DNA from: a virus
Lineage: Duplodnaviria; Caudoviricetes
DNA: 37,635 bases
Direction: 5' to 3' (one strand)
Virus record (IMG/VR): IMGVR_UViG_3300026266_000007
Location: 1 to 37,635 of that record
Made by a program: the position numbers and the translations under genes. The notes beneath the pieces were generated by a model. It was not told where the DNA came from. It made no database searches and was given only the letters and a program-made list of their open reading frames with translations. The first letter of the stretch is position 1, and every line of letters starts with the position of its first letter. This document shows positions 783 to 37,635 of the stretch, piece by piece.

Positions 783-816
783 TTCAAAATCCTTAAAAAA
801 ATTAACTTATACTATT

Positions 817-844
817 AATATAGTTATTATTTTGTTAACGTCAA
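817..844 (-). promoter_or_regulatory. Sigma70-like promoter TTGACG-N16-TATATT overlapped by a GTTAAC-N5-AATAAC box (823-839)
   Basis: Consensus match in an AT-rich intergenic region upstream of the leftward operon. Confidence 0.6.
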
Positions 845-926
845 GTGAACAGGTTAAAATAATGCATTAAATTGCAAAAAAAGTTTTTAATAAAATCAAT
901 AACTTACAATTTTTTTGAAATTTTTT

Positions 927-1274
927 TTAATCTTTTTTCATTTTTTCTTCGTAATGTAAGATACGGTGACAGTTTGCACACAGTTTCTGGCACTTTTCAG
1001 CCTCCTCATACGCACGCTTCCATTGCTTATGAGAAACGTAGTGGCTGACTTTTGTATCGCCTTTTGATTTTGGGTGATGGAAGTCGATAGCAGCCGGATG
1101 AGAAAAGCCACATTTTTCACATTTTAGTGTTGACTTAAATTCCCACCATTTTTCTCTATGTCGTTGAACATTTTTTTTAGTGCTCTCTATGACCTTCTCC
1201 CTGTTTTTGAGATACCAGTTCATGCCGTAAGACTTGTTATATGACTTACGCCGTTCTTTACTTTTATACGGCAT
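927..1274 (-). CDS. HNH endonuclease
   Basis: CEKC...IDFHH...LCANCHRILH zinc-binding HNH signature; AGGAG RBS. Confidence 0.9.
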   Translation of the reverse strand: MPYKSKERRKSYNKSYGMNWYLKNREKVIESTKKNVQRHREKWWEFKSTLKCEKCGFSHPAAIDFHHPKSKGDTKVSHYVSHKQWKRAYEEAEKCQKLCANCHRILHYEEKMKKD

Positions 1275-1593: not shown

Positions 1594-2724
1594 ATGGTTA
1601 GTCTTTTAGACGATATAATACGTTTTACTATGAAGGGCTCTAACTATTTTAAAAAGCCCAGATTAGACACTAGCAGATTAAAAGACCCAGCTCTTTATTC
1701 TGGGTTTTCTATAAATAAGCATAGGACTGCTCCGTTTAATTATAATGTTGAAGGCGAATTACTTGGTAATTTAATAAAACCTAAAAATGTTAGCCCTTCT
1801 GACTTACAGGGTAAAACAATGTATTTTGCCACTGGAGATAGAACTTCTAACGATAGATTAATAAAAGAAATAAATGATAGTTTATTAGAAAATCCTGTAA
1901 GAACTTACGGCGGCCCTGAATATATGGATCAAATAAAAAGAGGTTCTTGGGCCTCTGAGCCTACAGCAATGAGATCTAAAGCGAATGCATTTAAAGAAGC
2001 CGCTGCTAGAGGCGAAGACGTTGTATTAAGTTATATGCCTATGGGTGAAAGATCAGGAGATTTTTCTAAACATATGGCAGAAGTTTATGGAGAAATGTTA
2101 AAGTCTAGTCCTGTAGGATCTAACAGCTTTCCATTAATAGACGAAGCTATTGCTAATAAATTTCCTAAAATAAAAGATATACCAAGTTTTAAAAATAAAA
2201 CAAAATTTGCTGAATGGTTGTCTAATCAAAAAGGCGGCAGACGTGCAGCTTTTATAAAATTTTTTGATAGCAGCCTAATGCAAGATTTAGGTTTACCTGA
2301 TGTTGGCGCCGCACGCTTTGCAGTTACTAACCCAGATCTAGTAAACTCAAAAGCTCTTAGTGTTGGTTACAGGATGAGCCAGCCAGATCTTTTGTCAGGT
2401 ATGATTAAAAGTTCTGACCACCCATCCTACGGTGCTTTTGTTCCTAAAAGAGAAGGCACTGGTAGTATGACTTTTGAAGGTCAATTACCATTTATTATAG
2501 GTGCAAGAGATACAGCTTTACCTAAAATTGCAGCCGGCAAAATGGATGCTTTACCAAAAGATATAAAATCTTATATGGGTAACCCAAGGTTAAACCAGAA
2601 TATAGATCAACAATTTGTAGACGAAGCATCTACCTATTTTGATAAATTAAAGAACGAAGGTGCAGATCGAGCTGAAGCTTATACGTTTGATTTGTTAGAA
2701 AGTTACCTTAGAGGTCTTCAATAG
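1594..2724 (+). CDS. Hypothetical protein (376 aa), possibly virion-associated
   Basis: Long ORF upstream of the portal; no motif confidently recognised. Confidence 0.75.
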   Translation: MVSLLDDIIRFTMKGSNYFKKPRLDTSRLKDPALYSGFSINKHRTAPFNYNVEGELLGNLIKPKNVSPSDLQGKTMYFATGDRTSNDRLIKEINDSLLENPVRTYGGPEYMDQIKRGSWASEPTAMRSKANAFKEAAARGEDVVLSYMPMGERSGDFSKHMAEVYGEMLKSSPVGSNSFPLIDEAIANKFPKIKDIPSFKNKTKFAEWLSNQKGGRRAAFIKFFDSSLMQDLGLPDVGAARFAVTNPDLVNSKALSVGYRMSQPDLLSGMIKSSDHPSYGAFVPKREGTGSMTFEGQLPFIIGARDTALPKIAAGKMDALPKDIKSYMGNPRLNQNIDQQFVDEASTYFDKLKNEGADRAEAYTFDLLESYLRGLQ

Positions 2725-2907: not shown

Positions 2908-4104
2908 ATGGCTAAATTACCTCAAAACAAACCTATGTTCGGACCATCTTATGCAAATATTTTAGAAGCTGCAAAAGAGGATGATTTACAGGCTAAATCT
3001 TTATTAGATGAAGTGATAGAATCTTCTCATAGAGCACGAGAAATATCTTCTGGCTCAGCTATAAGACCTAGAGATACTACTTTTGCAGAAAATATGACTG
3101 ATCTACTTACGCCTTACATTGGTAAAGATATATCAAAAAGATTATTTGGTAATGCAAGGACGGGAAGTGGAACCGGTGCTTTTGGGGGACCTAAGTCGGG
3201 CATTTTAAATTATCTTGATAACGCCGGATTAGCTAACATCCTACCCGTAAGCGCTGGCATAATGTCAGGCGGTCAGGCCGTCAAAGATTTTATAGCTGGC
3301 AACTATAGAGGCGCAGCATTAAATACAGCCTTTGCTGGTTTAGATCTTGGATTAAGTGGGCTTGGATTAAAACAAGCTTTAAAAACGTCTGCAAGACCTG
3401 CTAAGTCATTGAAATCCCAGGGAAAAATACCCAATTATGAGGATGCAGCTCATTACATGAGGGTAAATGAAATGAAGGGTAATATGCTCAGGCCGCCATC
3501 AGCAACAAATCCAGAATATATACCAAGTCGCTTTGATCGTTTAGGAGTTCACGTAGGAACGCCTCAACAGGCATCAGATAGGTATAGATTTGGCGGTAAT
3601 GAAGGTCAGGGTCAGACATTTCCTTTAAAAATTAGAACTGAAAAACCATTTGAAATTAAAGATTTTGAAGAGTTTGGAATTAAACCAGATATAAGACCTC
3701 ATATGGTAGAAACTATAGATGGAAAAAAAGTTTTAAATGAAGACGGCGTTAGAGAGGCTATGAACGCATACGCTGATGCAAAAAATGTAAGTTTAGAAGA
3801 TGGTGTAGATTTATTTAGAAAAGAATTAACCGATAAAGGTTATACCAATATCCCCTATATTAATCTTATAGAGGGTAATGTTAATAAAAGACCGGTCAAC
3901 GTAGATGGACATTTTAAATTCTTGGCTGACGATGAATATTCTTTTACAAAAGAAAACATAAGCAACATTATGTTAGTTGACAGAACTGCTAACGATCCGG
4001 CGGTAATTAAAAGCCGATTTGCAAAATTAAAAAATATATATGACCCAAATATAATGGCTGGCATTGCCGGCATGGGTTTGTTATCCCAGTTGGAAGGTGA
4101 GTAG
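2908..4104 (+). CDS. Putative virion protein with C-terminal ART-PolyVal-like ADP-ribosyltransferase domain
   Basis: GVHVGTPQQASDR...TFPLKIRTEKPF...KGYTNIPYINLIEG...VIKSRFAK follows the ART-PolyVal motif order; Gly/Ala/Leu-rich N-terminal half. Confidence 0.6.
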   Translation: MAKLPQNKPMFGPSYANILEAAKEDDLQAKSLLDEVIESSHRAREISSGSAIRPRDTTFAENMTDLLTPYIGKDISKRLFGNARTGSGTGAFGGPKSGILNYLDNAGLANILPVSAGIMSGGQAVKDFIAGNYRGAALNTAFAGLDLGLSGLGLKQALKTSARPAKSLKSQGKIPNYEDAAHYMRVNEMKGNMLRPPSATNPEYIPSRFDRLGVHVGTPQQASDRYRFGGNEGQGQTFPLKIRTEKPFEIKDFEEFGIKPDIRPHMVETIDGKKVLNEDGVREAMNAYADAKNVSLEDGVDLFRKELTDKGYTNIPYINLIEGNVNKRPVNVDGHFKFLADDEYSFTKENISNIMLVDRTANDPAVIKSRFAKLKNIYDPNIMAGIAGMGLLSQLEGE

Positions 4105-8817: not shown

Positions 8818-9434
8818 GTATAGCGAATTACACTGATCTAAAAAATACAATCGCTGATTTTTTAAACAGAAGTGATTTAACAGCGGTTATTCCAACATTT
8901 ATAAGTTTAGCTGAAGCAGATATTAACAGAAATTTGCGGCACAGACTTATGGAGAATAGAGCCACAGCTACAGTTAATTCTAGATACAGTGTATTGCCCA
9001 CAGATTTTTTAGAGCCCATTAGATTACATTTAGAAGGAACTAACCATAATCCTCTGGAGCTCGTAAGCTTATTTGAAATGCAAAAGAAAAGAGCTGCTTC
9101 TCAGGATGTGGCTAACAAACCATTATTTTATGCCTTAACTCAAAGTGAAATAGAATTATTCCCGACGCCTAATGTTAATTACGACTTGGAGATGTATTAC
9201 TATGGAAAAGTTCCGGCTTTAAGTTCGAGTACGGCTACTAATAATATTTTGACTAGCCATCCAGATATATACTTATACGGCAGCCTTAGCCACAGCGCAC
9301 CTTACCTAGCAGAAGATCCAAGAATACAGGTATGGGCAGGGTTGTATAAAAATGCTATAGACGGCGCGAACCAAGAAAGTCAAAGATCTAAAACTAGTGG
9401 ATCTGGTATGAGTATGAAAATAGAGGCGTACTAA
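8814..9434 (+). CDS. Head-tail adaptor protein
   Basis: YTDLKNTIADFLNRSDL..IPTFISLAE, LPTDFLE, HPDIYLYGSL motifs. Confidence 0.85.
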   Translation: MSIANYTDLKNTIADFLNRSDLTAVIPTFISLAEADINRNLRHRLMENRATATVNSRYSVLPTDFLEPIRLHLEGTNHNPLELVSLFEMQKKRAASQDVANKPLFYALTQSEIELFPTPNVNYDLEMYYYGKVPALSSSTATNNILTSHPDIYLYGSLSHSAPYLAEDPRIQVWAGLYKNAIDGANQESQRSKTSGSGMSMKIEAY

Positions 9435-10348
9435 TGGCGACTATTGTAAAACGTGCAACTAAAGGCGCTCCGCTTACGCATGATGAAGTTGACGCTAACT
9501 TTGAAAATCTAAATACAGATTTAACAGGTAAGATTGGCGCTACTGGCGGCACAGTAAACGATGATGCTATTGTAAACTTTGGTAATGACACTGATTTACA
9601 GATTTATCACAACACAACTGGCAACGATGGTTACATTAAAAACAACACTGGTGAACTTTATATTCGTGGCGATAATATTACTCTTGGCGCAGTAGACCCG
9701 ACTAGCCCAACATTTATTACAATGGACGAAAATGGCGCTGTCGAGTTATTTTTTAACAACAGCAAGAAATTAGAAACAACAACAGATGGTGTGACGGTAA
9801 ACGGTGCATTAACTGTTACTGGCGGTTTTACTACAGCAAGTCTTACCGTTTCTGGTGCGCTGAGTGCTGACAGTTTAACAGCTACAAATGCGCTTACATC
9901 TGGTTCGGTTGTAACAGGATTAATTACAGCTAGTGGGGCGGTGACAAGCGCAGGGCTTACGTCAACTGGCGATGTAACTGTAACAGGTAATGTAACAGCA
10001 AGCGGAGATATGTCTGCAAGCGGTGTTACGGCAACATCTGTTACTTCAGAAAATATTAGTGGTTCGGCTATATCGGCTACTACAGTGACAACAACAGGCG
10101 ATATCACGTCTGGAAGTAATGTTATTGCTACTGGAAGCGTGACTTCTGATAGCATAGCAGCAAATGGTTCCATCTCTGGTGGGGCTATCAGTTCAACAGG
10201 TGCGATAACGTCTAATGGCGGCATTAATTCTGTTGGCAATGTTACTGTAACTGGAGCGTTAAGCGTGACAGATGCAGAAACAACTAGGTCAAACCTCGAT
10301 GTCGATAGGGCAGGCGAGGCATTGGCATTCAGTATAGCCTTGGGTTGA
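9434..10348 (+). CDS. Tail fibre/structural protein with short Gly/Thr/Ser repeats
   Basis: N-terminal KGAPLTHDEVDANF anchor; ~6-aa G-x-[VI]-T-[AS] repeats; C-terminal AFSIALG. Confidence 0.75.
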   Translation: MATIVKRATKGAPLTHDEVDANFENLNTDLTGKIGATGGTVNDDAIVNFGNDTDLQIYHNTTGNDGYIKNNTGELYIRGDNITLGAVDPTSPTFITMDENGAVELFFNNSKKLETTTDGVTVNGALTVTGGFTTASLTVSGALSADSLTATNALTSGSVVTGLITASGAVTSAGLTSTGDVTVTGNVTASGDMSASGVTATSVTSENISGSAISATTVTTTGDITSGSNVIATGSVTSDSIAANGSISGGAISSTGAITSNGGINSVGNVTVTGALSVTDAETTRSNLDVDRAGEALAFSIALG

Positions 10349-10366
10349 TTAGAAAAGGAGAAAATC

Positions 10367-10816
10367 ATGGCTGATGCGGCGAAAGCTACAATGGAAGTTA
10401 CAGTCCTTCCAGATGAGATTGCAAAAACATTCTCAGCAACAATGACTGTCACACCTGAAGATGCAAACGACAAATGGTATTACAAGCTTTCTTCGGTAAA
10501 TAACACAAGTTCAGACCTTATTGCAGGGTCTTTTGTGGACTACACCGCAGTAGATAGTTCTACAGCGCCAACAGCCGTTGCAGGCACAGATAAAGTTAAG
10601 TTTCTATACATTAAGAATGTTGATGGAAACGGCGGCTCTATTTATGTTATTTTTGATGGTGCGGCAGTAACTTCTGCTTCGACTGATGCTATTGTTTTGG
10701 GGCCAAATGAAGCTTTTGCTGCTCGTTTGCCAAATACAACTGTGGCAGATGTTCATGCAATTTCGTCAGCATCTACTGTTGAGTGTGTTGTTTGCGCTTT
10801 GCTTGACGACATCTAA
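10367..10816 (+). CDS. Putative structural protein
   Basis: AAGGAG RBS; beta-rich; within the tail module. Confidence 0.75.
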   Translation: MADAAKATMEVTVLPDEIAKTFSATMTVTPEDANDKWYYKLSSVNNTSSDLIAGSFVDYTAVDSSTAPTAVAGTDKVKFLYIKNVDGNGGSIYVIFDGAAVTSASTDAIVLGPNEAFAARLPNTTVADVHAISSASTVECVVCALLDDI

Positions 10817-10833
10817 GTAAGAGGTAAGCACAT

Positions 10834-11142
10834 ATGGCTAATACGTTTAAAAACTACACAGCGGCTTCAGTCGGTAAGTCTGAGGAAACTGTATATCAAG
10901 TTCCACAAGGAACAACGGCAGTGGTTATTGGATGTAATTTAGCCAATGTGCATACCGCTCAAGTAAAAATATCTGTCAAGGCGGCATATGTTCATTTGGT
11001 TAAAGATGTACCTTTGCCAAGTGGTTCTGCCTTGTCAGTTCTTGATGGAAAAGTTATTCTACAAGAAGGAAATACGGTCACGATAGAAAGTGACACAGAT
11101 AAATCGGTTGATGTTATTTTGAGTGTTCTGGAGCAAACATGA
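10834..11142 (+). CDS. Small tail-associated structural protein (MANTFKN type)
   Basis: GAGG RBS; MANTFKN...VILSVLEQT pattern. Confidence 0.8.
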   Translation: MANTFKNYTAASVGKSEETVYQVPQGTTAVVIGCNLANVHTAQVKISVKAAYVHLVKDVPLPSGSALSVLDGKVILQEGNTVTIESDTDKSVDVILSVLEQT

Positions 11143-12161
11143 GTAAGCAGAACGAATTAGTTCAATTTTCTAGGCGTGCGTCAGGTGGTGGCCCAAAGAA
11201 CGTCATAATTAATGGTGGTATGACTATTGCACAAAGAAGCACCCAAAGCACTAATGCAGGAAGCGGTTACATAACTGTAGATAGATTTTATCACGAACTA
11301 AAAAACGCTACTGATAATCTTACATATACTACAGAGCAAGTTACTGATGCTCCCTCTGGCTTCAGTAAATCTTTAAAACTTACGGTTACAACAGCAGAGT
11401 CAGCATTAGCGGCTGATGAATTTGGCAGAATGTATTACGTTGTAGAGGGGCAAGATTTACAACGTATCGGATATGGAACGTCTGCTTGTAAAGAAGTCAC
11501 ACTGTCTTTTTATGTGAAGTCTAGTATTACTGGTAACTTTTCAGCAAGTATATACTTATCAGCTTCTGGCGGTGTTATCGCTAGTCAAGCGTATACTATT
11601 AATTCAGCAGATACTTGGGAAAGAAAAACACTTACATTTCCAACTTACACTACAGCTAATGTGCCAAATACTAATGCGGCAGGAATGTATATTAACTTTG
11701 GGTTATTTGCTGGTAGTAATTATAATACTTTATCACCTACTTTTATTGCTCACACTGGGGCGCATCTTTTAGGTGGTCAGGCTGCAAACTTTGCGGCTGT
11801 GAACGGCACGACATGGCAACTAACTGGCGTTCAATTAGAAGTTAACGATACCGCTACGGATTTCGAACACGAAAATTATGGAACGACTTTAGCCAAGTGC
11901 CAGAGGTATTTTTGGAAAGATGCTTACTCAGCAGGAACAGGTATTTATGCTACTCAGTATATAACGAGCCATAAGTTTGCACAGGTTTTTCACCCAGTAC
12001 AAATGAGAGCAGTTCCTACTTCAACTGCTACTTATGGCGGTGGTACTAATCTTACTGAATATCAATCATCTGCAACACATTTTAAAGCTTATTTAGCATC
12101 GGCACATGATGCAAATACCCAACATTATTTAACGTCTTATCAGGCAGACGCGGAGTTATAA
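11139..12161 (+). CDS. Tail fibre/receptor-binding protein with carbohydrate-binding-like domain (paralog A1)
   Basis: NVIINGGMTIAQR, VEGQDLQR, TLSFYVKS, TGVQLE, ATDFEH, terminal ADAEL. Confidence 0.75.
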   Translation: MSKQNELVQFSRRASGGGPKNVIINGGMTIAQRSTQSTNAGSGYITVDRFYHELKNATDNLTYTTEQVTDAPSGFSKSLKLTVTTAESALAADEFGRMYYVVEGQDLQRIGYGTSACKEVTLSFYVKSSITGNFSASIYLSASGGVIASQAYTINSADTWERKTLTFPTYTTANVPNTNAAGMYINFGLFAGSNYNTLSPTFIAHTGAHLLGGQAANFAAVNGTTWQLTGVQLEVNDTATDFEHENYGTTLAKCQRYFWKDAYSAGTGIYATQYITSHKFAQVFHPVQMRAVPTSTATYGGGTNLTEYQSSATHFKAYLASAHDANTQHYLTSYQADAEL

Positions 12162-12332
12162 ATGATAGTTACAAGAGCGCAACATAATGAGTTTCAGGGT
12201 CAAGACACTGGTTGTGTAACAGCAATAATAGATGGTGTTGAAATGAGTATACCAAAAGATACAGCCAATCGACACTGGGTAGCCATTCAAGAATGGGTTG
12301 CAGACGGAAATACAATAGAGGAAGCTGACTGA
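12162..12332 (+). CDS. Small putative fibre chaperone (56 aa, paralog B1; ...NRHWVAIQEWVADGNTIEEAD)
   Basis: Read by eye; fills the gap exactly; GGAG RBS; TGATG coupling; paralog at 16891. Confidence 0.85.
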   Translation: MIVTRAQHNEFQGQDTGCVTAIIDGVEMSIPKDTANRHWVAIQEWVADGNTIEEAD

Positions 12333-13171
12333 TGGCAGGGTATATAGGCGCAAATACTAGCTCAGTAACCAACAACCAAAATGCGGCTGAACGTAGGAAG
12401 AAATTTACGTTTACAGCTAATACAACTGCGCTTACTGGTTTAAGTTTTTTACCTAACAAAATACATATTTTCCACAACGGAATACGCCTCGTAAAAGATA
12501 CGGATTTCCTCGAAGCCGCTGATGGACAGAGCGTAACCCTTATAAATGCCGCACAAGCAGGCGATGAAGTAGTAGCAGTTACGTTTGAACAAAACCCTGC
12601 TGTTGGCAGTAGTTATACTGACGCTGATGTTGATGCACGTTTATTAAAGACAGGGAATATTTTACCAGACGCAGACAATGCAAGTGATTTAGGTTCAGCA
12701 ACTAAAAGATTTAATGAGCTTTACGTTGGGGGCGGTATAGTTTTCGGCGATGCAAGTGCGGCAAGTATTTCGAGTGAAACTTTGGATTCGTACGAAGAAG
12801 GCACATTTAATTTTGAAATGGTTGGTTACTATGGCTCTCCATCACCTAAAATACAGATACCAGCTCACTATACTAAAATTGGAAATACAGTTCATTTTTG
12901 GGCGCTTAAGACAGCTATAAATAATACTGGTTACGCAGGCAATATGTGGTTTACTGGATTACCTTTTTCTGCACCATCACCATACTCTATTGGCAATATT
13001 TCTTTATATTTTATAGGAACCTATACTGGTTACGGACCACACTTGTTAATTTCTGGTGGTACTGCTTATGCAGTATTGCATCAAAGTAATGCTTCTTCAT
13101 GGAGTGCAGTCATGCACAACGTAGTTAGTTCGGGTGGTGAAGTATATATGGCTGGAACATATAAAGTTTAA
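12332..13171 (+). CDS. Tail fibre protein (MAGYIG N-domain, LDSYEEGTF C-domain)
   Basis: N-domain shared with 13470-13925; ILPDADNASDLGSATKRF linker. Confidence 0.75.
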   Translation: MAGYIGANTSSVTNNQNAAERRKKFTFTANTTALTGLSFLPNKIHIFHNGIRLVKDTDFLEAADGQSVTLINAAQAGDEVVAVTFEQNPAVGSSYTDADVDARLLKTGNILPDADNASDLGSATKRFNELYVGGGIVFGDASAASISSETLDSYEEGTFNFEMVGYYGSPSPKIQIPAHYTKIGNTVHFWALKTAINNTGYAGNMWFTGLPFSAPSPYSIGNISLYFIGTYTGYGPHLLISGGTAYAVLHQSNASSWSAVMHNVVSSGGEVYMAGTYKV

Positions 13172-13187
13172 ATAAAAGGAACTTAAA

Positions 13188-13457
13188 ATGGCACTAACAG
13201 AAGAAAAAATTGAAGATAAAGTTGAAATTGTTAGTAACAATGATTGGAAAGTAATCCAAGTAAGGGATGCAACGATTGTAAAGCGAGACGGTGTGGAAAT
13301 AAGCCGTTCATTCCATAGGCACATTGTTATGCCAGATATAAGCGCAGATGATTTAGCGAATGAAAGCGCAGACGTTCAAGCCTTTGCTGCACAAATATTT
13401 ACTGATGAAGTTAAGGCAGCTTATGACGCGCACTTGCAGTCAATGATTAGAGAATAG
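13188..13457 (+). CDS. Putative fibre-associated chaperone
   Basis: IQVRDATIVKRDGVEISRSFHRH pattern; follows the YEEGT-type fibre. Confidence 0.75.
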   Translation: MALTEEKIEDKVEIVSNNDWKVIQVRDATIVKRDGVEISRSFHRHIVMPDISADDLANESADVQAFAAQIFTDEVKAAYDAHLQSMIRE

Positions 13458-13469
13458 GTAAATTTTTTA

Positions 13470-13925
13470 ATGGCAGGCTATATTGGAAGTACAGGCGCAA
13501 CGCCCCAAGCCACTCAAACGAGAGATACCTTTACTTGCGTTGGCGGTGAAACCAGTTTTGCGACAGGTGGGTATTCGGTCAACTATGTTGATATCTGGCT
13601 CAATGGCATAAAGATGCAAGTGGGTACGGATGTACAAGCCACGAACGGTTCTGATGTAATTTTTGCAAGTGCTTGTTCAGCTTCGGACATTGTAGAAGTC
13701 ATAGCATACAAAACCTTTGAAGTGGCAGGCGCATCAGGTGGTGGGTATTTTCTTGGAGAAAATGGGCAAACAGGAACAAGCGCAGGCGATATATTTAGAG
13801 CAAATGAGCAAGAGTTAAACACAGATGTAACCATAGCATCTACTTTGAATTGTTCTGCGACAGGCCCACTTACCATTGCCTCTGGCACAACCCTTACAGT
13901 TAGCGGAAATTTGGTGATTATATGA
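13470..13925 (+). CDS. Tail fibre adaptor-like protein (MAGYIG N-domain)
   Basis: Paralogous N-domain; C-terminal SATGPLTIASGTTLTVSGNLVII. Confidence 0.75.
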   Translation: MAGYIGSTGATPQATQTRDTFTCVGGETSFATGGYSVNYVDIWLNGIKMQVGTDVQATNGSDVIFASACSASDIVEVIAYKTFEVAGASGGGYFLGENGQTGTSAGDIFRANEQELNTDVTIASTLNCSATGPLTIASGTTLTVSGNLVII

Positions 13926-14422
13926 GTACGTTACACGTTGAAAATCTAAAAGGTCCAACAAGCGGAGCTAATGCAAATAAGATTATCGTACCTAGCGGTC
14001 AGGAGCTTCATGCGGCTGGTCATGTTATTCAAGTGGTAACATCTACTAAAAATGACCAAACTCAAATAACTTCAACTTCGGCTGTTGATACTGGCCTTTC
14101 TGTAAGCATAACGCCAAAGTTTAATACAAGTAAAATATTTATTTCTTTAGGTACTTTGGGTATTTGTTATCAAACTAATTATGTATATCATAATTTGCTT
14201 AGAGGTAGTACAGTAATTCATGGTAATAATGCTTATAATAATAATACCACTTGGATGCCTATAAATTTTGCCATAAGCCACTTGGACAGCCCTGCCACAA
14301 CATCAGCAATTACCTATAAAACTCAGGCTTATATATCAAACGTAGGGGATTTAAGGTTTAATTATAACGCATCTGGTACTACTCATACTGCCTCAATAAC
14401 TGCTATGGAGATAGCCCAATGA
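13922..14422 (+). CDS. Short fibre/receptor-binding subunit, paralog C1
   Basis: MSTLHVENL...AGHVIQVV...ITPKF...DSPATTSAITY...MEIAQ. Confidence 0.75.
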   Translation: MSTLHVENLKGPTSGANANKIIVPSGQELHAAGHVIQVVTSTKNDQTQITSTSAVDTGLSVSITPKFNTSKIFISLGTLGICYQTNYVYHNLLRGSTVIHGNNAYNNNTTWMPINFAISHLDSPATTSAITYKTQAYISNVGDLRFNYNASGTTHTASITAMEIAQ

Positions 14423-14922
14423 GCATTCTCAAAGTAGATACAATAAACGAAAAGACGAGTGGCAATGGTGTGCATATTGCAGGCCATGTTGTTCAAGCTG
14501 TAACTGCAACTTTTGGTGGTTCCTCTTCTAGTACAGCAAGCCTAGTAGCTATGGCAACTTGTGGTTCGATAACAACAAAGTTTGCTAATTCTAAGTTATT
14601 AGTTACAGCGGCGGCTCAACTACAAACAGGAAACTCAACATCGGCTGATACTAAGGCACAGTATGCTTTACGTTCTTCTGTCGATAGCTATGCTTCAAAC
14701 CTTCATACTCAAGCTGTTGTTAACTACAGAGATAGTTCAAATGGATGGCAACAAGCCGCCATGCCTTTTCATACATTACATAGTCCTAGCGCATCTGCAG
14801 GAACAACTATTACATATAAAATATATGGAAATAGAGTTAGTAGTCCACAAGGTATATACGTTATTGACGCTTGGGGTTTAGGTGCTGAAGGTAAACTTAC
14901 AATACTGGAGATAGCCCCATGA
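14419..14922 (+). CDS. Short fibre/receptor-binding subunit, paralog C2
   Basis: MSILKVDTI...AGHVVQAV...ITTKF...HSPS...LEIAP. Confidence 0.75.
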   Translation: MSILKVDTINEKTSGNGVHIAGHVVQAVTATFGGSSSSTASLVAMATCGSITTKFANSKLLVTAAAQLQTGNSTSADTKAQYALRSSVDSYASNLHTQAVVNYRDSSNGWQQAAMPFHTLHSPSASAGTTITYKIYGNRVSSPQGIYVIDAWGLGAEGKLTILEIAP

Positions 14923-15458
14923 GTAGCATCTTAAAAGTTGATACGATACAAACGACAGCAGGGGCGGCTCCTACAACTAAGGACTTAGGTTTTGCGGCAG
15001 GGTCAGTTATTCAGATGGTTAATACATCTTGGAATACTAAAACAACTATTTCATCGCAAAGTGCTACAGCAATAACTGGAGCTTCTTTAGCAATAACTCC
15101 AAAGTTCAGCACCAGTAAAATAGTTGTTATGGTTAATCTTAGTATGAAAGTAAACGATACAAATACTACTTATTATAACACTGGTTTTGAAATTTTAAGA
15201 GGCTCAACTCAATTACAGACACTTGCTGGAGATAATGCAGGACCTTTTGAAATAGGTCATTACGATGGCGGTCATAGCGGTGGAGAACTTTGTGTTAGAT
15301 ACTCAAATAATATTGTAGATAGCCCTAGTACAACTTCAGCAACAACATACAGCGTCAAAGGTAAAGCCTATGGTACTGCTGGTTCAATTCTAACTGTAAA
15401 TCATGGGGATACTACATTTGGACAGTCGTCGATTATATTAATGGAGATAGCACAATGA
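14919..15458 (+). CDS. Short fibre/receptor-binding subunit, paralog C3
   Basis: MSSILKVDTI...AGSVIQMV...ITPKF...DSPSTTSATTY...MEIAQ. Confidence 0.75.
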   Translation: MSSILKVDTIQTTAGAAPTTKDLGFAAGSVIQMVNTSWNTKTTISSQSATAITGASLAITPKFSTSKIVVMVNLSMKVNDTNTTYYNTGFEILRGSTQLQTLAGDNAGPFEIGHYDGGHSGGELCVRYSNNIVDSPSTTSATTYSVKGKAYGTAGSILTVNHGDTTFGQSSIILMEIAQ

Positions 15459-15841
15459 CAGATATAGCAACAGCACTAAACGAACTAGGCGTAACTGAAT
15501 GGGTGTTACGAGGTGATCCAACTTCTGAAGCAGAATTTAACGAAATGTTTCGTAAGGTCACAGGCGCAGACAGCAACGGCTCTGCCATAGAAAGTGACAA
15601 TCCTGATGACTTTGGCACAACTTGGTCGGCAGTCTCAGCTAAGAAAACTGAGCTAGTTAACGCAAAGCCAATGGCTGACCTTCGTGAAGAGCGTAACAGG
15701 CGCTTGGCTGAAACAGATTGGATGGGTAACTCTGATGTTGCCATGTCTGACGCTTGGAAAACCTATCGTCAAAATTTACGAGATATTACAAACAGCGCAA
15801 CTAGCTTAGACGATGTAACGTGGCCTACTAAACCATCTTGA
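15455..15841 (+). CDS. Tail fibre assembly chaperone
   Basis: LREERNRRLAETDW...WKTYRQNLRDIT...WPTKP signature. Confidence 0.85.
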   Translation: MTDIATALNELGVTEWVLRGDPTSEAEFNEMFRKVTGADSNGSAIESDNPDDFGTTWSAVSAKKTELVNAKPMADLREERNRRLAETDWMGNSDVAMSDAWKTYRQNLRDITNSATSLDDVTWPTKPS

Positions 15842-15849
15842 GGTAACTA

Positions 15850-16890
15850 ATGACTAAAGCCAGAGACATAGCAGATAACGCAGGGAAAGCAGGCGGTGGC
15901 GGTGGCGTCAATGTCATAGTCAACGGTGCAATGAATTTAAGTCAACGTGGAACCTCGTTTGCTTCTGTTGGCAACGTTTATACTTTGGATAGATTTGAAT
16001 TTTATAAGCAAAACTCTGGTGCGGCTTTTACTGTTTCACAATCAAGCGTCACAGACTTAGCAGGGTTTGGTAACGCACTAAAAGTAGATTGCACAACGGC
16101 AGATACTTCGCTTGCTTCGAATGAGCAAGGATATGTTTCTCACAAACTAGAAGGTCAAGACTTACAAAGGTTCCAAAAAGGACACGCTACAGCATTAGGT
16201 TTTACATTATCTTTCTATGTGAAAACAAATAAAACTGGTCTTTATACTGTATCAATGTTTGACAGAGATAACACTAGAAAAGTAAATGGTTCGTATACTG
16301 TAGCTGATACAAATTGGAACAGATATACTATTAATTTTCCTGCCGACACCACAGGCAAATTTGATGATGACAATGCAAGTTCATTAGAAATATTTTTTAA
16401 TTTATATGCTGGTGCAGATACAAATACTGGCACTTTAAAAACAACATGGGCGGCTTCCACTGATGCAGGAAGTACAACTGGTCAAGTAAACTTTGCAGAT
16501 AGTACAAGTAACGATTGGGAAATTACTGGCATACAATTACAAACTGGAGATGAAGCAACGGATTTTGAACACGAAATAATTTCTGTTACTCAAAAAAAAT
16601 GCTATCGTTATTATTACAAATCTGCTGGCTATACTTTGGCTTTAGCCAATAGTAATGCGACAGGGTATTCATATAGAGAACATAGAACCCAAAATCATAG
16701 CTTTCCTGCTGGTCAAATGAGAACAGCACCAACATTGACAGCCGTTGCAGGCATACAATCTTTAAATAGTGGAAGTGTAATGGTTTACGGTCATATAGAC
16801 CATGTTGTTTCGTATTCAGACACTTACGGTGGCGAGTTGCCAGTCGGTAACTACTGGTATGGCGGTTATACAGCAGATGCGGAGTTATAA
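15850..16890 (+). CDS. Tail fibre/receptor-binding protein with carbohydrate-binding-like domain (paralog A2)
   Basis: MTKARDIA start; NVIVNGAM, LEGQDLQR, TLSFYVKT, ATDFEH, terminal ADAEL. Confidence 0.75.
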   Translation: MTKARDIADNAGKAGGGGGVNVIVNGAMNLSQRGTSFASVGNVYTLDRFEFYKQNSGAAFTVSQSSVTDLAGFGNALKVDCTTADTSLASNEQGYVSHKLEGQDLQRFQKGHATALGFTLSFYVKTNKTGLYTVSMFDRDNTRKVNGSYTVADTNWNRYTINFPADTTGKFDDDNASSLEIFFNLYAGADTNTGTLKTTWAASTDAGSTTGQVNFADSTSNDWEITGIQLQTGDEATDFEHEIISVTQKKCYRYYYKSAGYTLALANSNATGYSYREHRTQNHSFPAGQMRTAPTLTAVAGIQSLNSGSVMVYGHIDHVVSYSDTYGGELPVGNYWYGGYTADAEL

Positions 16891-17061
16891 ATGAATATTA
16901 CATCAGCCCAATATACAGCCCCAGAAGATAATCCTATGAGGCAAATAAAAGCAACAATAGATGACATTGTAATGTTTGTTCCAATAAATAGTGAAAATAG
17001 ACATTATATAGCTATTCAAGAATGGGTTGCAGACGGAAACTCTATCGAGGAAGCTGAATGA
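16891..17061 (+). CDS. Small putative fibre chaperone (56 aa, paralog B2; ...NRHYIAIQEWVADGNSIEEAE)
   Basis: Read by eye; paralog of 12162-12332; ATGA coupling to the next gene. Confidence 0.85.
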   Translation: MNITSAQYTAPEDNPMRQIKATIDDIVMFVPINSENRHYIAIQEWVADGNSIEEAE

Positions 17062-17273
17062 CTGCATTAAACCCATATGTCGAGCGAGATAATAATGCTT
17101 CTGGGGCAAATGTTGTATTTGCAGGAAAGCGTTACTGGCTAGTGGGATATTGCGAAGGTGATGGCATTTGGAGCGATGACGCACAAGGTCAAGCAACATG
17201 GGCTAATGATAGTGCGGCAAGTGGTAGTTGGGTTAACGATAGCGGAGCGTCAGGAACGTGGACGGACGCTTAG
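17058..17273 (+). CDS. Small protein with 10-aa Trp-spaced repeats
   Basis: WSDDAQGQAT-WANDSAASGS-WVNDSGASGT-WTDA. Confidence 0.75.
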   Translation: MTALNPYVERDNNASGANVVFAGKRYWLVGYCEGDGIWSDDAQGQATWANDSAASGSWVNDSGASGTWTDA

Positions 17274-17310
17274 AAAAATGATACGTTGGGTTTAAGAAAA
17301 GGATTTTATT

Positions 17311-17967
17311 ATGTCTACGACAACAAATTTAGGTTTAACTAAGCCAACGGTAGGTGGAAGTGATAGTACGTGGGGTAATACACTTAACGCCAATTTTGAT
17401 TTACTTGACACAGCCGTTAACAAGGCAATGCCTACTGGCGGTATTATTATGTGGTCAGGTGCGGTATCTGCTATTCCGACAGGTTGGGCTTTATGCGATG
17501 GTACAAACGGCACACCAAATTTAACAGGTAAGTTTGTTGTTCACGCTGACGCTGATAGTAGTGGAACTTACAATGTGGGCGCAAGTGGCGGTGCAAATAC
17601 AGTTACACTAGCAACTGGTGATATTCCTGCTCACAGCCACACAGGTACAGCGGCAAGCGGTGGGGCGCATACTCATACAGGTTCAACTAATTCGGCAGGC
17701 GCACACACGCATACTTATACAGATAAATATGTTGAACAAACATCTCTAATTCCAGGAATTGACATTGATTTTAACGCTACAACTTGGGACCCAAATGGGC
17801 AATTAACTGGCACTACAAGTTCAAGCGGAGCGCATACTCATACAGTAACTATAACAAGTGGTGGCGCACACACTCACACCTTAACGGTTGATAATGCAGG
17901 GGGCGGTGGCGCTCACGAAAACAGACCACCTTACTATGCTTTGGCGTATATAATGAAATTGGCTTAA
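17311..17967 (+). CDS. Tail collar-domain fibre with HxH repeats
   Basis: PTGGIIMWSG..IPTGWALCDGTNGTPNL collar domain; multiple AHTH motifs; HENRPPYYALAYIMK end. Confidence 0.9.
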   Translation: MSTTTNLGLTKPTVGGSDSTWGNTLNANFDLLDTAVNKAMPTGGIIMWSGAVSAIPTGWALCDGTNGTPNLTGKFVVHADADSSGTYNVGASGGANTVTLATGDIPAHSHTGTAASGGAHTHTGSTNSAGAHTHTYTDKYVEQTSLIPGIDIDFNATTWDPNGQLTGTTSSSGAHTHTVTITSGGAHTHTLTVDNAGGGGAHENRPPYYALAYIMKLA

Positions 17968-30104: not shown

Positions 30105-30311
30105 ATGCAAGTACAACTTACTAAAGATGGCGGCAAGTGGAACAAGCGCAAGAAAAAGCAGATTGGCCCTCGCATGGAGGAAGAGCTTGTTGACCATATC
30201 AAAGAGGAAGCAGCTAGAGTTGGCGTGTCAGAAAATGAGTACGTCAAGATGCTAGTTGTCAAAGACGCTAAAGCTAAAGGGAAGAGCTTACAGTATGATT
30301 ATTGGCATTGA
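30105..30311 (+). CDS. Ribbon-helix-helix (Arc/CopG-like) regulator
   Basis: KQIGPRMEEELVDHIKEEAARVGVSENEYVKMLV; GGAG RBS. Confidence 0.75.
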   Translation: MQVQLTKDGGKWNKRKKKQIGPRMEEELVDHIKEEAARVGVSENEYVKMLVVKDAKAKGKSLQYDYWH

Positions 30312-30771
30312 TTGCGGCTACAAGACGGGCGGCGTTGCCCTCTTATCACCCAGAGACAACTGGGCTGAGGTTCACGACTTACCCGTGTACGACGAGGGCG
30401 GCGTGGACGTAGCTGCATTAATGGACCTGATTACCAGCGGAGACAAAGTCGATCACATTTACGTGGAGCGTCAGCACGCCATGCCTAAGCAGGGCGTCGT
30501 ATCTACATTTAAAATCGGTTTTGCATTCGGACAGATAACAAGCACTTGTGCACTATCTAAATCGCCTTACACTATCGTAAGCGCCAACACTTGGAAACGA
30601 GCTTTAGGCTTGGCAAAAGATAAAGACGCGAGTAGACGTCTAGCACAGCAGTGGTATCCTGACTTAACGTCAGAGTTAAAAAGAAAAAAAGATGAACACA
30701 GAGCCGAGGCTCTACTCATTGGAAATTATGGGAGTAAACAACATGAGTATCAAACTAAACCTCGACAATGA
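30295..30771 (+). CDS. RuvC-like Holliday junction resolvase
   Basis: MIIGIDCG..GG, YVERQHAMPKQGVVSTF, WKRALGL, DEHRAEALLI. Confidence 0.9.
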   Translation: MIIGIDCGYKTGGVALLSPRDNWAEVHDLPVYDEGGVDVAALMDLITSGDKVDHIYVERQHAMPKQGVVSTFKIGFAFGQITSTCALSKSPYTIVSANTWKRALGLAKDKDASRRLAQQWYPDLTSELKRKKDEHRAEALLIGNYGSKQHEYQTKPRQ

Positions 30772-31540
30772 GGAGTATCACCTATCGCCAGCATTAAGCG
30801 CGTCAGGTGCAAAAATTATAGCGCAGAAGTCATTAGCGCATTACAAGTACGGCGAATTTAAAAGCTCGGCAGCTTTTGACTTAGGCACAGCTACTCACAC
30901 TCTCTGTTTAGAGCCTCATAGATCCAACACTGTCTGGTGTGGGCCAGAGACTAGACGAGGCAAGGCGTGGACTGAGCATAAGGATGAAGCTGAAGCCGCC
31001 GGCGCAATCCTACTGACAGAGGCAGAGTATAAAATTGCACACGACATGGCTAAGGCTGTGTGGGCAAATGAGGAAGCGGCAAAACTATTAACTGGTGACA
31101 TTTTAATAGAGCCCAGTTTGTTCGTAAAAGATCATGTCAGGAATGCTGACCTAAGATGTAGGCCGGATGCGTGGCGAAAAGATATTGCCGTAATAATTGA
31201 TTTAAAGACAACGATAGATCCTTCGCCTGCCGGCTTCGCGTCGCAGGCTGGCAAGCTAGGCTATCACATACAGGACCAGTTTTACCGTATGTGTATGGCA
31301 CTCGAAGGTCACGAGATAGACCGGTTTGTATTTATCGCTGTAGGAAAAGACGCGCCCTACACTGTGGGCGTCTATGAGCTCGACGAGCGGTCACTGCAAG
31401 AGGGCAGGGCAGCCGTTGAATATGCGCTGGACAGATTTGTGTTGGCGCAGGAAACCGGTGTGTGGGGGTATGATTATGGGGAGTTGCAAACGATCCAGAT
31501 ACCGCCGTACACTTTTAAATTCACCAATGAGCAAACGTAG
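30743..31540 (+). CDS. RecE/exonuclease VIII-like PD-(D/E)XK nuclease (DUF3799-like)
   Basis: YH...LSASG, GTATHTLCLEP, RCRPD...IIDLKTT, GYHIQ..FY, FVFIAVGK. Confidence 0.9.
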   Translation: MSIKLNLDNEEYHLSPALSASGAKIIAQKSLAHYKYGEFKSSAAFDLGTATHTLCLEPHRSNTVWCGPETRRGKAWTEHKDEAEAAGAILLTEAEYKIAHDMAKAVWANEEAAKLLTGDILIEPSLFVKDHVRNADLRCRPDAWRKDIAVIIDLKTTIDPSPAGFASQAGKLGYHIQDQFYRMCMALEGHEIDRFVFIAVGKDAPYTVGVYELDERSLQEGRAAVEYALDRFVLAQETGVWGYDYGELQTIQIPPYTFKFTNEQT

Positions 31541-35422: not shown

Positions 35423-35688
35423 TGGATAGAGATGACATATTAAAAGAAGCAATGAAGGTCATTAACAATGATCGTAATGCTGACTATGGAGATGCTAGAG
35501 AAAACTTTGAGAATACGGCTGCGCTCTGGTCAGCTTATCTTGGCTATGAAATAGGGCCTGTTGATGTAGCTGTAATGATGGTGTTGCTTAAAATATCTAG
35601 GATAAGAGTATCGCCTGACAAAGCAGATCACTGGGTAGATATTTGTGGCTACTCAGCTCTATCAGGAGAAATAGCAAATGGTAGGTAA
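35422..35688 (+). CDS. DUF6378-like protein
   Basis: DRNADYGDARENF...LWSAYL...MMVLLKISR...DHWVDICGY. Confidence 0.85.
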   Translation: MDRDDILKEAMKVINNDRNADYGDARENFENTAALWSAYLGYEIGPVDVAVMMVLLKISRIRVSPDKADHWVDICGYSALSGEIANGR

Positions 35689-36112
35689 GATAGGTAAAGC
35701 TAAGATTGCAGCCATAGAACAGATTGGCGAAGATGAAGTGTTGGAGCGTATTTCTACCGGCACTTCAGTTCGCACGTTAATGAGGGAGTTTAACATTGGT
35801 TATAAACTATTTGCTATGTGGTTAGATGCTGCCGGTGGAAGACGTGGCAGATATGAACAGGCGTTAAATGAAGCTGGTCATTATTATGCTGAGCGTGCAG
35901 TTGATACAGCGCAAACAGCTCAGCCTGAAGATGTTAATGTGTCGAGGTTAAAGGTTGATACTGATAAGTGGATAGCAAGTAAGCTTAACTCTAAGTATGA
36001 TACTCGACAACGTGACGTGGCTATAAACATAAGTGTCAATGACTTACACGCGCAAGCAGCGGAGCTATTAGATAGCGTTATCGAAGGTGAAGCGGAAGAG
36101 ATTGAACGGTGA
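35678..36112 (+). CDS. terS: Terminase small subunit (Sf6 gp1-like)
   Basis: ERISTGTSVRTL HTH, YEQA, RLKVDTDKWIASKLN.KY; upstream of TerL. Confidence 0.85.
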   Translation: MVGKIGKAKIAAIEQIGEDEVLERISTGTSVRTLMREFNIGYKLFAMWLDAAGGRRGRYEQALNEAGHYYAERAVDTAQTAQPEDVNVSRLKVDTDKWIASKLNSKYDTRQRDVAINISVNDLHAQAAELLDSVIEGEAEEIER

Positions 36113-36151
36113 TTTCGCACACTAAATCACACTCGCGCAGGCGCGTGCGCG

Positions 36152-36281
36152 TGCCGCAATGCGGCATAAATGTCAACTTTCAGCCCATTTTTAGCCATTT
36201 TATGCTGCAACTGCGAAGAAATAGGCCCAGAATTAACATAATACATATTATGCGAAAACATATTTTCTGCGGTGCAGCATA
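36152..36281. promoter_or_regulatory. Three TATGCYGCA-N2/3-GCR boxes (PhaR-like) around the dif site
   Basis: 36152-36168 (-), 36201-36215 (+), 36268-36281 (-). Confidence 0.45.
36231..36258 (-). other. dif: XerC/XerD dif-like recombination site
   Basis: TTTTCGCATAA-TATGTA-TTATGTTAATT; 22/28 identical to E. coli dif (XerD arm 10/11, XerC arm 8/11, 6-bp spacer); intergenic. Confidence 0.88.
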
Positions 36282-36373
36282 TATGATTTTGACCCCCCCC
36301 TTTTTCAGCGCCGGTCGGCGCAAATGCACAGGTCCTCCCCACACATCCCATAAAAAAATTTTAGGATAATCAC

Positions 36374-37635
36374 ATGGAACAAAATGTTAACAATAACCCC
36401 TTCGTAGAGCTGATGAAGCGCTACCGAAATGACCCCGTTAAGTTCGCCATCGAAGTGATAGGCATTGAGCCCGACGATTGGCAAAAGGAATTGCTACGGG
36501 AAGTCGCCAACCCAAAGACTAGGCGCGTCAGTTGTCGCTCTGGGCACGGGGTAGGTAAGTCAACGGCTGTTGCTATGGCTGCCGTGTGGCACGTTTTAAT
36601 GCGCGTACCTTCGAAGACAGTTGTGACAGCCCCCACGTCGGCCCAGCTTTTTGACGCCTGCTTCGCAGAAATGAAAAATGTAGCCAAGCGCCTGAAAAAG
36701 CCTTTTAACGATTTACTGGAAATCAAGAGTGACCGTATTGAGCTCAAGAGCCAGCCACAGAGCACGTTTATATCGTGCCGGACGTCTAGGCAGGAACAGC
36801 CGGAGGCGCTGGCAGGAGTTCACTCAGAAAATGTGCTATTATTAGCCGACGAAGCCAGCGGCATACCGGCCAGCGTTTTCGAAGCAGCCAGCGGTAGTAT
36901 GTCGGGACACAACGCGACGACTGTTTTGACCGGCAACCCCACACGTAACACTGGCTTTTTTTACGACACACACAACCGCCTGAAGGAAGATTGGCACACG
37001 ATGCACGTTAGCTGCGTTGATAGCCCTCGCGTCGCCGACGACTTTGTCAGCGACATGGAGAAGCGCTACGGGCAGGATAGTCCGGCGTTCCATGTGCGCG
37101 TGCTTGGAAATTTTCCACCGTCAGAAGAGGACACAGTTATTCCCGTGGCCTTGATTGACCACGCCATGAACAACGACATAAAGATCCACGAGGATACCGT
37201 GGCCGTGTGGGGCCTCGACGTAGCACGTCAGGGCATGGATAGCTCCGTTTTGTGCAAGCGTCAGGGCCCCGTTATTCATCCGTTAACTGTCTGGCGTAAC
37301 CTCGACTTGATGCAGTTGACCGGCGCCGTAAAGGCTGAGTACGACGCCATGCAGCCTTCGAAGAAGCCGGCTGAGATTATTGTCGATAGCAACGGGTTCG
37401 GCGCCGGCGTTTTAGACCGGTTGCGTGAGCTGGGTCTGCCAGCGCGTGGTTTAAACGTGTCCGAGCGTGCCCTACAGAAAGACACGTATTTAAATTTACG
37501 CGCTGAGCTGTGGTTTAAGGTGAAGGCTTGGCTAGAAGGTATGGACGTCAAGCTGCCCCGTGACGACGCTCTGTGGGCTGAGCTGGCAGCTCCACGCTAT
37601 CACTTTACCAGCGCCGGCAAGCTGCAAGTCGAAAG
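36374..37635 (+). CDS. terL: Terminase large subunit, partial (runs off window end)
   Basis: Read by eye, not in the ORF track: MEQNVNNNPF...DDWQ...RSGHGVGKS (Walker A), VTAPT, LLLADEASG (Walker B), LTGNPTR, WGLDVAR nuclease motif. Confidence 0.96.
   Translation, partial: MEQNVNNNPFVELMKRYRNDPVKFAIEVIGIEPDDWQKELLREVANPKTRRVSCRSGHGVGKSTAVAMAAVWHVLMRVPSKTVVTAPTSAQLFDACFAEMKNVAKRLKKPFNDLLEIKSDRIELKSQPQSTFISCRTSRQEQPEALAGVHSENVLLLADEASGIPASVFEAASGSMSGHNATTVLTGNPTRNTGFFYDTHNRLKEDWHTMHVSCVDSPRVADDFVSDMEKRYGQDSPAFHVRVLGNFPPSEEDTVIPVALIDHAMNNDIKIHEDTVAVWGLDVARQGMDSSVLCKRQGPVIHPLTVWRNLDLMQLTGAVKAEYDAMQPSKKPAEIIVDSNGFGAGVLDRLRELGLPARGLNVSERALQKDTYLNLRAELWFKVKAWLEGMDVKLPRDDALWAELAAPRYHFTSAGKLQVE

What the first reader, a model, noticed from the sequence alone, without database searches (positions are those of the whole stretch)
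36231..36258. Near-canonical XerCD dif site between terS and terL in a podovirus with no recognisable integrase
Seen: the minus strand reads TTTTCGCATAA-TATGTA-TTATGTTAATT, versus E. coli dif GGTGCGCATAA-TGTATA-TTATGTTAAAT, in the ~260-bp terS-terL gap. I recognise no tyrosine or serine recombinase in the window. Known: host XerCD acts on such sites and is exploited by filamentous phages (CTXphi, VGJphi) and plasmids (cer, psi, pdif). P22/Sf6-type pac sites lie in terS, and P1 uses loxP near pac to circularise. Inference, three options: (a) the site falls in the terminal redundancy of the first headful, so host XerCD circularises the genome, a recombinase-free analogue of P1 lox; (b) it resolves dimers of a plasmid-like prophage; (c) it integrates at the host dif, which would split terS from terL and silence packaging. 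I cannot confirm novelty without a literature or database search.
Basis: partly seen in the sequence, partly recalled or inferred. Interest (0 to 1): 0.9.

Follow-up and report, generated by a model that had tools for sequence, protein, structure and literature searches.

The report
Host dif site at phage ends
An abundant group of integrase-free marine phages keeps a copy of the bacterial chromosome-untangling site (dif) between its two DNA-packaging genes, in a stretch that is likely repeated at both ends of the virus DNA, so host XerC/XerD enzymes probably join the ends, a use not found in the papers searched and testable in E. coli phages with the same layout.

Summary
The site is real and selected. 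It lies between terS and terL; a 99.45%-identical contig closes the 1.9-kb genome gap with no recombinase. 73 of 80 relatives carry it in the same place and strand. The arms are conserved and the spacer drifts like flanking DNA.

Integration is unlikely: 71 of those 73 have terS intact beside it, and no host junction was found.

Two lines put it in a short terminal repeat. PhiM5's annotated 357-bp repeat projects to 35,828-36,335. One of seven runs shows a threefold depth plateau there, one a weak rise, three none, two are uninformative. In 4 of 4 cultured rV5-like phages with mapped repeats, a site with near-host arms and non-host spacer lies inside the repeat.

Best reading (0.5): XerCD recombines the two identical end copies to circularise or concatemerise the genome. 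No recombination was shown; no activator was found. The scan noted terminase-linked and rV5-repeat dif sites before on other DNA. Ten paper searches listed no report.

The parts
36231..36258 (-). dif-type XerC/XerD target: XerD arm 36231-36241, 6-bp spacer 36242-36247, XerC arm 36248-36258
   Evidence: 26 of 28 identical to a chromosomal site in G047
35828..36335 (.). Predicted direct terminal repeat, about 500 bp, boundaries approximate and inferred; holds the 3' part of terS and the dif site
   Evidence: phiM5 repeat projected by TerS alignment and C-run; depth plateau in run X6 starts between 35,779 and 35,879 and ends near 36,350
35678..36112 (+). Small terminase, Sf6-like
36374..37635 (+). 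Large terminase, cut by the contig end; 472 aa in L001
36141..36154 (.). Alternating purine-pyrimidine box just after terS, conserved in relatives; function unknown
   Evidence: 54 of 62 contexts, 19.6 in shuffles
36265..36279 (.). Palindromic box matching the published PhaR consensus, on the XerC side; binding untested
   Evidence: 30 of 62 contexts, 10.3 in shuffles; consensus from PMC6201568 passages
36293..36300 (+). C-run followed by GC-rich DNA, likely an end-processing signal; phiM5 has the same run 34-42 bp inside its repeat end
   Evidence: (six or more C within 10-107 nt of the XerC arm in 62 of 62 contexts)
30256..30771 (+). RuvC-like Holliday junction resolvase; possible helper for a XerC-made junction (inference only)
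   Evidence: phrog_1770, phrog_159
30692..31540 (+). RecE-like exonuclease; a possible Xer-independent route for end joining

Best explanation
This phage carries a conserved dif-type site between terS and terL, likely inside a short repeat present at both ends of the virion DNA, and host XerC/XerD would recombine the two identical copies after injection to close the genome into a circle or join genomes head to tail. Shown: the site, its conservation pattern, the lack of a phage recombinase, and the same layout inside mapped repeats of cultured rV5-like phages. Inferred: that this phage has a fixed repeat of about 500 bp (about 0.7), that XerCD binds (about 0.9), and that end joining is the selected function. 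Both partners are copies of one site, so the spacer only has to match itself. That explains conserved arms with a drifting spacer, and a mismatch to the host spacer would hinder integration. With no activator found, the likeliest route is a XerC-first Holliday junction finished by replication or by the phage's RuvC-like resolvase (inference).
For: (1) Position. 73 of 80 IMG/VR terL relatives have the site 105-264 bp upstream of terL on the same strand; 4 lacked upstream DNA and 3 lack the site. In metagenome contigs with TerL at 69% or more, 44 of 47 with enough DNA have it. The scans overlap and are not summed. (2) Selection pattern. Among 122 pairs with similar flanks, divergence was 0.006 in the XerD arm, 0.10 in the inner XerC arm, 0.16 in the spacer centre and 0.14 in flanks. 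There are 18 spacers among 35 distinct sites, and phages 98-100% identical in TerL differ in spacer. (3) No tyrosine or serine recombinase in complete relatives (0 of 5 in each). (4) phiM5 (TerL 51%) has an annotated 357-bp repeat that starts inside terS and ends 36 bp before terL; it projects to 35,828-36,335. Run X6 has contig depth about 590 left of that interval, 1,738 within, and 518 then 316 right of it; X5 has 173, 247, 150. (5) Gotham, EdH4, Hena1 and KPP-1, 4 of 4 Vequintavirinae with mapped 459-519 bp repeats, hold the site inside the repeat. In the first three both arms equal E. coli dif, and in all four the spacer differs. (6) In a motif-first IMG/VR sample, 20 of 58 loci tested had terS or terL as a flanking gene, across at least three TerL families.
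Against: No binding or recombination was tested. The depth plateau is clear in 1 of 7 runs, weak in 1, absent in 3 (X1, X2, X8) and unreadable in 2 (X3, X4). All were contigs, whose depth the tool says is not copy number. An Sf6-like TerS usually means headful packaging with an imprecise second end (recalled). No FtsK-gamma or DUF3653 domain was found in 5 of 5 genomes, and KOPS-like words are few and not polarised. XerCD is inactive by default without FtsK or accessory proteins (PMC6744903 passages). The site is dispensable: L030, L033, L036, L361 and L415 lack it, as do 21 of 21 metagenome loci with TerL at 57-64%, phiM5 and 9g. The phage has its own exonuclease and resolvase for homologous end joining. 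Sites in Seurat, phiPMW and H101 lie in intergenic gaps whose relation to the ends was not established.
Confidence: 0.5

Rival explanations
1. XerCD resolves dimers or unlinks catenanes of replicating phage circles, as at chromosomal dif or plasmid cer/psi; the position near the terminase only reflects available non-coding space.
For: Also predicts conserved arms and a free spacer. One strong site per genome. An IHF-like box (consensus recalled) lies at a fixed offset from the XerD arm in 18 of 62 contexts and could be accessory DNA. Sites in Seurat, phiPMW and H101 are not shown to be at ends.
Against: Does not explain 4 of 4 placements inside repeats of about 0.5 kb in 136-149 kb genomes, or the tie to the C-run in 62 of 62 contexts. 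No ParA-type ATPase in 5 of 5. No KOPS polarity.
Confidence: 0.22
2. The site is bound but not recombined: XerCD acts as a roadblock that shields the DNA end from exonucleases or translocases, or as an architectural factor for the terminase alongside IHF.
For: The XerD arm is the most conserved part. The site lies about 80 bp from the predicted right end. It sits among other protein-binding-like boxes. No activator was found.
Against: Both arms, the 6-bp spacing and the spacer's last base are kept in all 35 distinct sites (partly circular, since the arms were the search criterion). The whole site is inverted in L388, so its polarity towards the end can change.
Confidence: 0.15
3. The site is an attP: host XerCD integrates the phage at chromosomal dif, as in CTXphi, TLCphi or gokushoviruses, splitting terS from terL.
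For: No phage integrase. A chromosomal site in G047 matches 26 of 28 bases with the same spacer. Spacers vary among the 4 species of that genus. Read by eye, 4 of the 18 phage spacers also occur in the host list.
Against: 71 of 73 loci with the site have terS beside it, and the other 2 are too short. Four metagenome loci without a terS hit carry the same phage insert seen between terS and the site in L358 (L411 and L416 were checked). Only 2 close-clade hits were found among 185,579 species genomes, both on short MAG contigs, one showing terS-site-terL intact. TerS was found in 1 of 401 family genomes, on a 4-kb phage contig with the site beside it. No joints or loose ends at the site in 7 runs. 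Near-identical phages differ in spacer. In rV5-like phages the spacer mismatches the known host.
Confidence: 0.08
4. A chance AT-rich palindrome or promoter that resembles dif.
For: The arms contain minus-10-like words; the phiPMW record labels its site a putative promoter.
Against: 0 of 100 shuffles; conserved while neighbouring intergenic DNA is not; no promoter match at the site; arm variants mirror chromosomal sites; inverted in L388.
Confidence: 0.03

Closest known systems
Chromosomal dif / XerCD / FtsK dimer resolution
   Same: 11-6-11 layout; 22 of 28 identical to E. coli dif and 26 of 28 to a site in G047; one strong site per genome
   Different: On a tailed-phage genome beside the terminase; no KOPS polarity; spacer drifts between near-identical genomes
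Plasmid Xer sites (cer, psi, pdif)
   Same: Host XerCD target on a mobile replicon; conserved XerD arm, variable XerC arm and spacer (pdif pattern recalled); candidate accessory boxes nearby
   Different: No partition ATPase found; the candidate accessory box is IHF-like and is absent in this window; tied to the packaging end
IMEXs (CTXphi, TLCphi, VGJphi, gokushoviruses)
   Same: Integrase-free phage with a dif-like site (PMC6744903 passages; PMC7062461 search listing only)
   Different: Those are non-tailed and integrate at dif; here no integrated copy or hybrid site was found and no DUF3653 domain
P1 Cre-loxP circularisation
   Same: A tyrosine-recombinase site duplicated at the virion DNA ends would close the genome (recalled)
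   Different: P1 encodes its own Cre; here the recombinase would be the host's and the repeat appears short and fixed
Sinorhizobium phage phiM5
   Same: TerL 51% identical; terS, C-run, terL layout; annotated 357-bp repeat from inside terS to just before terL
   Different: phiM5 has an integrase and no dif-like site
Vequintavirinae (rV5-like) terminal repeats
   Same: dif with host or near-host arms and non-host spacer inside a repeat of about 0.5 kb, 4 of 4 tested
   Different: Unrelated 136-149 kb myoviruses with no terminase gene annotated within 2.5 kb of the site in rV5; the three papers read do not contain 'Xer'

Membership tests
XerCD core site (dif type) | 11-bp XerC arm, 6-8 bp overlap, 11-bp XerD arm | tested here: met
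   definition in PMC6744903 passage
XerCD core site (dif type) | Arms under stronger constraint than flanking DNA | tested here: met
   XerD arm 0.006 against flank 0.136; inner XerC arm 0.10, only slightly lower
XerCD core site (dif type) | XerC/XerD bind and recombine it | not testable with these tools
   needs gel shift and recombination assay
Chromosome-type (FtsK-activated) dif | KOPS polarised towards the site | tested here: not met
   1-4 words per genome, no consistent polarity in 6 genomes (motif recalled; genomes are small)
IMEX attP | Integrated copies at host dif with hybrid attL/attR | tested here: not met
   the host is unknown and MAGs often break at prophages
IMEX attP | Spacer homology with the host dif | tested here: inconclusive
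   G047 matches, but the host is unknown and close relatives differ
IMEX attP (TLC type) | XafT-like activator | tested here: not met
   DUF3653 in 0 of 5 genomes (link of this domain to XafT recalled)
Plasmid resolution site (cer/psi) | About 200 bp of accessory DNA bound by host proteins | tested here: inconclusive
   IHF-like box in 37 of 62 and PhaR-like box in 30 of 62 contexts; not universal; binding untested
Plasmid-like prophage | Partition ATPase | tested here: not met
   PF13614 in 0 of 5 genomes
P1 lox-like end-joining site | Site present twice in the virion DNA | tested here: inconclusive
   met for 4 of 4 Vequintavirinae; for this phage only the depth plateau and the phiM5 projection
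P1 lox-like end-joining site | Phage-encoded recombinase | tested here: not met
   so it is not a member, though it may work like one

The most novel reading that the evidence does not exclude
Unrelated tailed phages, from this abundant marine podophage clade to lytic rV5-like coliphages, have converged on placing a host dif site inside their terminal repeats so that host XerCD joins their genome ends. This would be a third use of Xer, after resolution and integration, and the first host-recombinase route of end joining for tailed phages.
Probability: 0.45. Interest if true: 0.88.

Novelty: new variant of a known kind. Interest (0 to 1): 0.74.

Why it matters
How phages with short terminal repeats close or concatemerise their DNA is settled for few models (own knowledge). 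A host-enzyme route would make XerC/XerD unrecognised host factors for an abundant marine clade (5,354 TerL clusters at E of 1e-80 or better) and for rV5-like phages studied for therapy. It would also explain integrase-free genomes with a recombination site without invoking lysogeny. The question can be tested now in E. coli K-12 with cultured phages.

Tried and rejected
KOPS polarity: none. FtsK-gamma, DUF3653, ParA and serine recombinase domains: 0 of 5 each. Diversifying selection on the spacer: suggested (0.32 against 0.096 at third codon positions, 28 non-independent pairs) but rejected by the flank control (0.16 against 0.14). Strain collapse as the cause of the depth plateau: none of the 40 closest loci listed is a mosaic matching only the plateau, and the intergenic part is the least conserved; an unsampled mosaic is not excluded. 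Contig-end clustering: 4 of 80 contigs start within 60 bp of terL against 0.6 expected, but three look like one virus and one starts exactly at the ATG, so this is not counted as evidence. Second sites in G030, G136, G142 and G163 had no terminase neighbours. Phage 9g has a mapped end but no site. The Grass hit lies inside an ORF with a poor XerC arm. The weak match at window 3951 lies inside an ORF, score 15 against 33.5. No paper on phiM5's ends or on C72C1 was listed. The host was not identified. Host and phage spacers were not tallied by script, so that comparison is by eye only. No folds or complex predictions were run. Supplements were not read; that of PMC9862379 holds the PhageTerm figure.

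Full report
OBSERVATION. The quoted 28 bases are at 36231-36258 on the minus strand. The exact arm pattern matches once, and in 0 of 100 shuffles. The site is 22 of 28 identical to an E. coli chromosomal dif fetched here. It lies in the 261-bp gap between an Sf6-like terS and terL. The window is a whole virus record, 95% complete. Contig L001, 99.45% identical, closes the circle across 1,886 bases that encode no recombinase. Five complete relatives have no PF00589 or PF00239 match, and PF07508 is absent from the window and four of them. The matching public runs are marine or seawater metagenomes.

CONSERVATION. Of 80 IMG/VR loci with TerL 83-100% identical, 73 have the site 105-264 bp upstream of terL, all on the same strand. 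Four had under 40 bp of upstream DNA. Three (L030, L033, L036, apparently one virus) lack it, although their close relative L043 has it. With terS as query, 66 of 80 loci have it within 700 bp, 4 have it about 2.1-2.3 kb away just before terL, 3 have none and 7 end too soon. In metagenome contigs, 44 of 47 readable loci with TerL at 69% or more have it, 43 on the usual strand and L388 inverted; 0 of 21 with TerL at 57-64% pass the threshold. These scans share contigs and are not additive. Phage C72C1 (TerL 44%) has it at the same place and strand. Among 35 distinct sites, 13 columns are invariant and there are 18 spacers (arm conservation is partly built into the search). In pairs with similar flanks the XerD arm diverges 0.006, the inner XerC arm 0.10, the spacer centre 0.16 and the flanks 0.14. 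That is the pattern of a protein-bound site whose middle has to match only itself.

SURROUNDINGS. In 62 non-redundant contexts a run of six or more C follows the XerC arm within 10-107 nt in all 62. An IHF-like box (consensus recalled) lies on the XerD side in 37 (4.3 in shuffles), 18 of them at one offset plus or minus a base. A PhaR-like box (PMC6201568, passages) occurs in 30 (10.3 in shuffles). The window has the C-run and the PhaR-like box but no IHF-like box there. In L180 the whole module sits upstream of terS, so it follows the packaging region rather than gene order. Similar sites occur in 67 of 151 genomes of the family around G011, whose record title says Rhodobacteraceae; 62 have one copy. 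One, in G047, is 26 of 28 identical with the same spacer, among cellular genes. An alphaproteobacterial host is therefore plausible but not shown.

INTEGRATION TEST. 71 of 73 loci with the site have terS on its other side and 2 are too short. A scan of 185,579 species genomes gave two hits at 79% or more, both on short MAG contigs; L086 is intact across the site and L087 is too short to tell. TerS was found in 1 of 401 family genomes, on a 4-kb phage contig. No joint or loose end fell at the site in seven runs. These are negative results with an unknown host.

TERMINAL REPEAT. Sinorhizobium phage phiM5 has TerL 51% identical. Its record annotates a 357-bp direct terminal repeat that starts in terS codon 23 and ends 36 bp before terL; the paper behind it was not available. 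Projected by TerS alignment and the C-run, the repeat maps to 35,828-36,335. In run X6, contig depth is 584-595 up to 35,778, 1,738 at 35,879-36,250, and 518 then 316 from 36,351. X5 gives 173, 247 and 150. X1, X2 and X8 are flat, and X3 and X4 span the region in one contig. The edges agree with the projection to within about 50 bp. The tool warns that contig depth is not copy number, and only 1 of 7 runs is clear.

CULTURED PARALLEL. A BLAST of the site against cultured phages hit rV5-like myoviruses. Gotham's annotated 459-bp repeat (PMC7471380 passages) and EdH4's exact 459-bp end repeat (458 bp in PMC6563267 passages) hold the site at 170-197. I then tested two more. Hena1 has it at 289-316 of a 519-bp repeat. 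KPP-1 has it at 116,529, inside the 116,316-116,829 repeat (PMC9862379 passages). Hena1 was noticed through its repeat label, so KPP-1 is the one blind test, and all four belong to one subfamily. Arms equal E. coli dif in three; spacers differ in all four. Since 5,419 of 5,426 E. coli genomes match the Gotham site, nearly all at one place, the arms track the host while the spacer does not. Against generality: 9g has a mapped end and no site (PMC4276943 section 16), and the sites of Seurat, phiPMW and H101 could not be tied to ends (PMC5587285 passages).

BREADTH. About 3,200 IMG/VR stretches hold the exact motif. Of 80 loci with flanks, 22 were left out (site inside a long ORF, low score or duplicate). 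Of the 58 tested, 20 had terS or terL as a flanking gene, from at least three TerL families, with the site before terS, between the genes or after terL, in either orientation. No background rate was computed.

MECHANISM. After injection, two identical sites in direct repeat would flank the genome. XerCD recombination within one molecule gives a circle with one repeat; between molecules it gives a head-to-tail concatemer. XerD needs FtsK or another activator, while XerC alone makes Holliday junctions that replication can finish (PMC6744903 passages). No FtsK-gamma domain, DUF3653 domain or KOPS polarity was found, so a XerC-first route, helped by replication or the phage's RuvC-like resolvase, is the likeliest. 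This step is inference. Confidence is 0.5; the rivals are multimer resolution (0.22), binding without recombination (0.15), integration (0.08) and chance (0.03).

NOVELTY. Xer use by plasmids and by non-tailed integrating phages is known. Ten searches were run; five asked for Xer or dif with phage terms, and their listings showed no paper on dif at tailed-phage ends. One listed preprint concerns an inovirus (10.1101/633727 passages). The library lacks most subscription journals, so this is not proof. The scan's own earlier notes report terminase-linked sites and the rV5 repeat site on other DNA; they are not counted as support. What this window adds is the conservation statistics, the closed genome, and the first hint that the terminase-linked site also lies in a terminal repeat, which would unite the two observations. 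Verdict: real feature, new variant of a known kind, interest 0.74.

Noticed in passing
L388:3826-3853: The whole 28-bp site is inverted relative to close relatives L385, L387 and L389, while the upstream IHF-like box stays on the terS side.
   Followed up: partly
L030, about 9,100-9,200: The site is replaced by short repeats and a hairpin; close relative L043 keeps it. No integrase was found in the partial records.
   Followed up: partly
L180:1841-2650: The same cis-module lies upstream of terS in a phage whose TerL is only 55% identical, with a site identical to that of the L326 group; suggests module exchange.
   Followed up: partly
window 760-930: Very AT-rich gap with an IHF-like box at about 896.
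   Followed up: no
window 1594-2724 and 2908-4104: Two large ORFs before the portal with no PHROGs or Pfam hit; this region varies among close relatives.
   Followed up: no
window 9434-17967: About ten tail-fibre-like ORFs, two of them (11139-12161 and 15850-16890) hitting the same phrog_4492 stretch.
   Followed up: no
L487:3001, L488:2502, L489:2502: Cultured phages Seurat, phiPMW and Pseudoalteromonas H101 carry strong dif-like sites in intergenic gaps; phiPMW's is annotated as a promoter.
   Followed up: partly
L203:2501: dif-like site between terL and portal in an unrelated phage.
   Followed up: no
L358:1999-2700, L411:1976-2689, L416:1308-2009: A reverse-strand phrog_2554 gene is inserted upstream of the site, between it and terS in L358; L411 also has an HNH gene between the site and terL.
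   Followed up: partly
L391, L413, L359, L412: An extra XerD-arm-like word lies within 65 bases of the main site.
   Followed up: no
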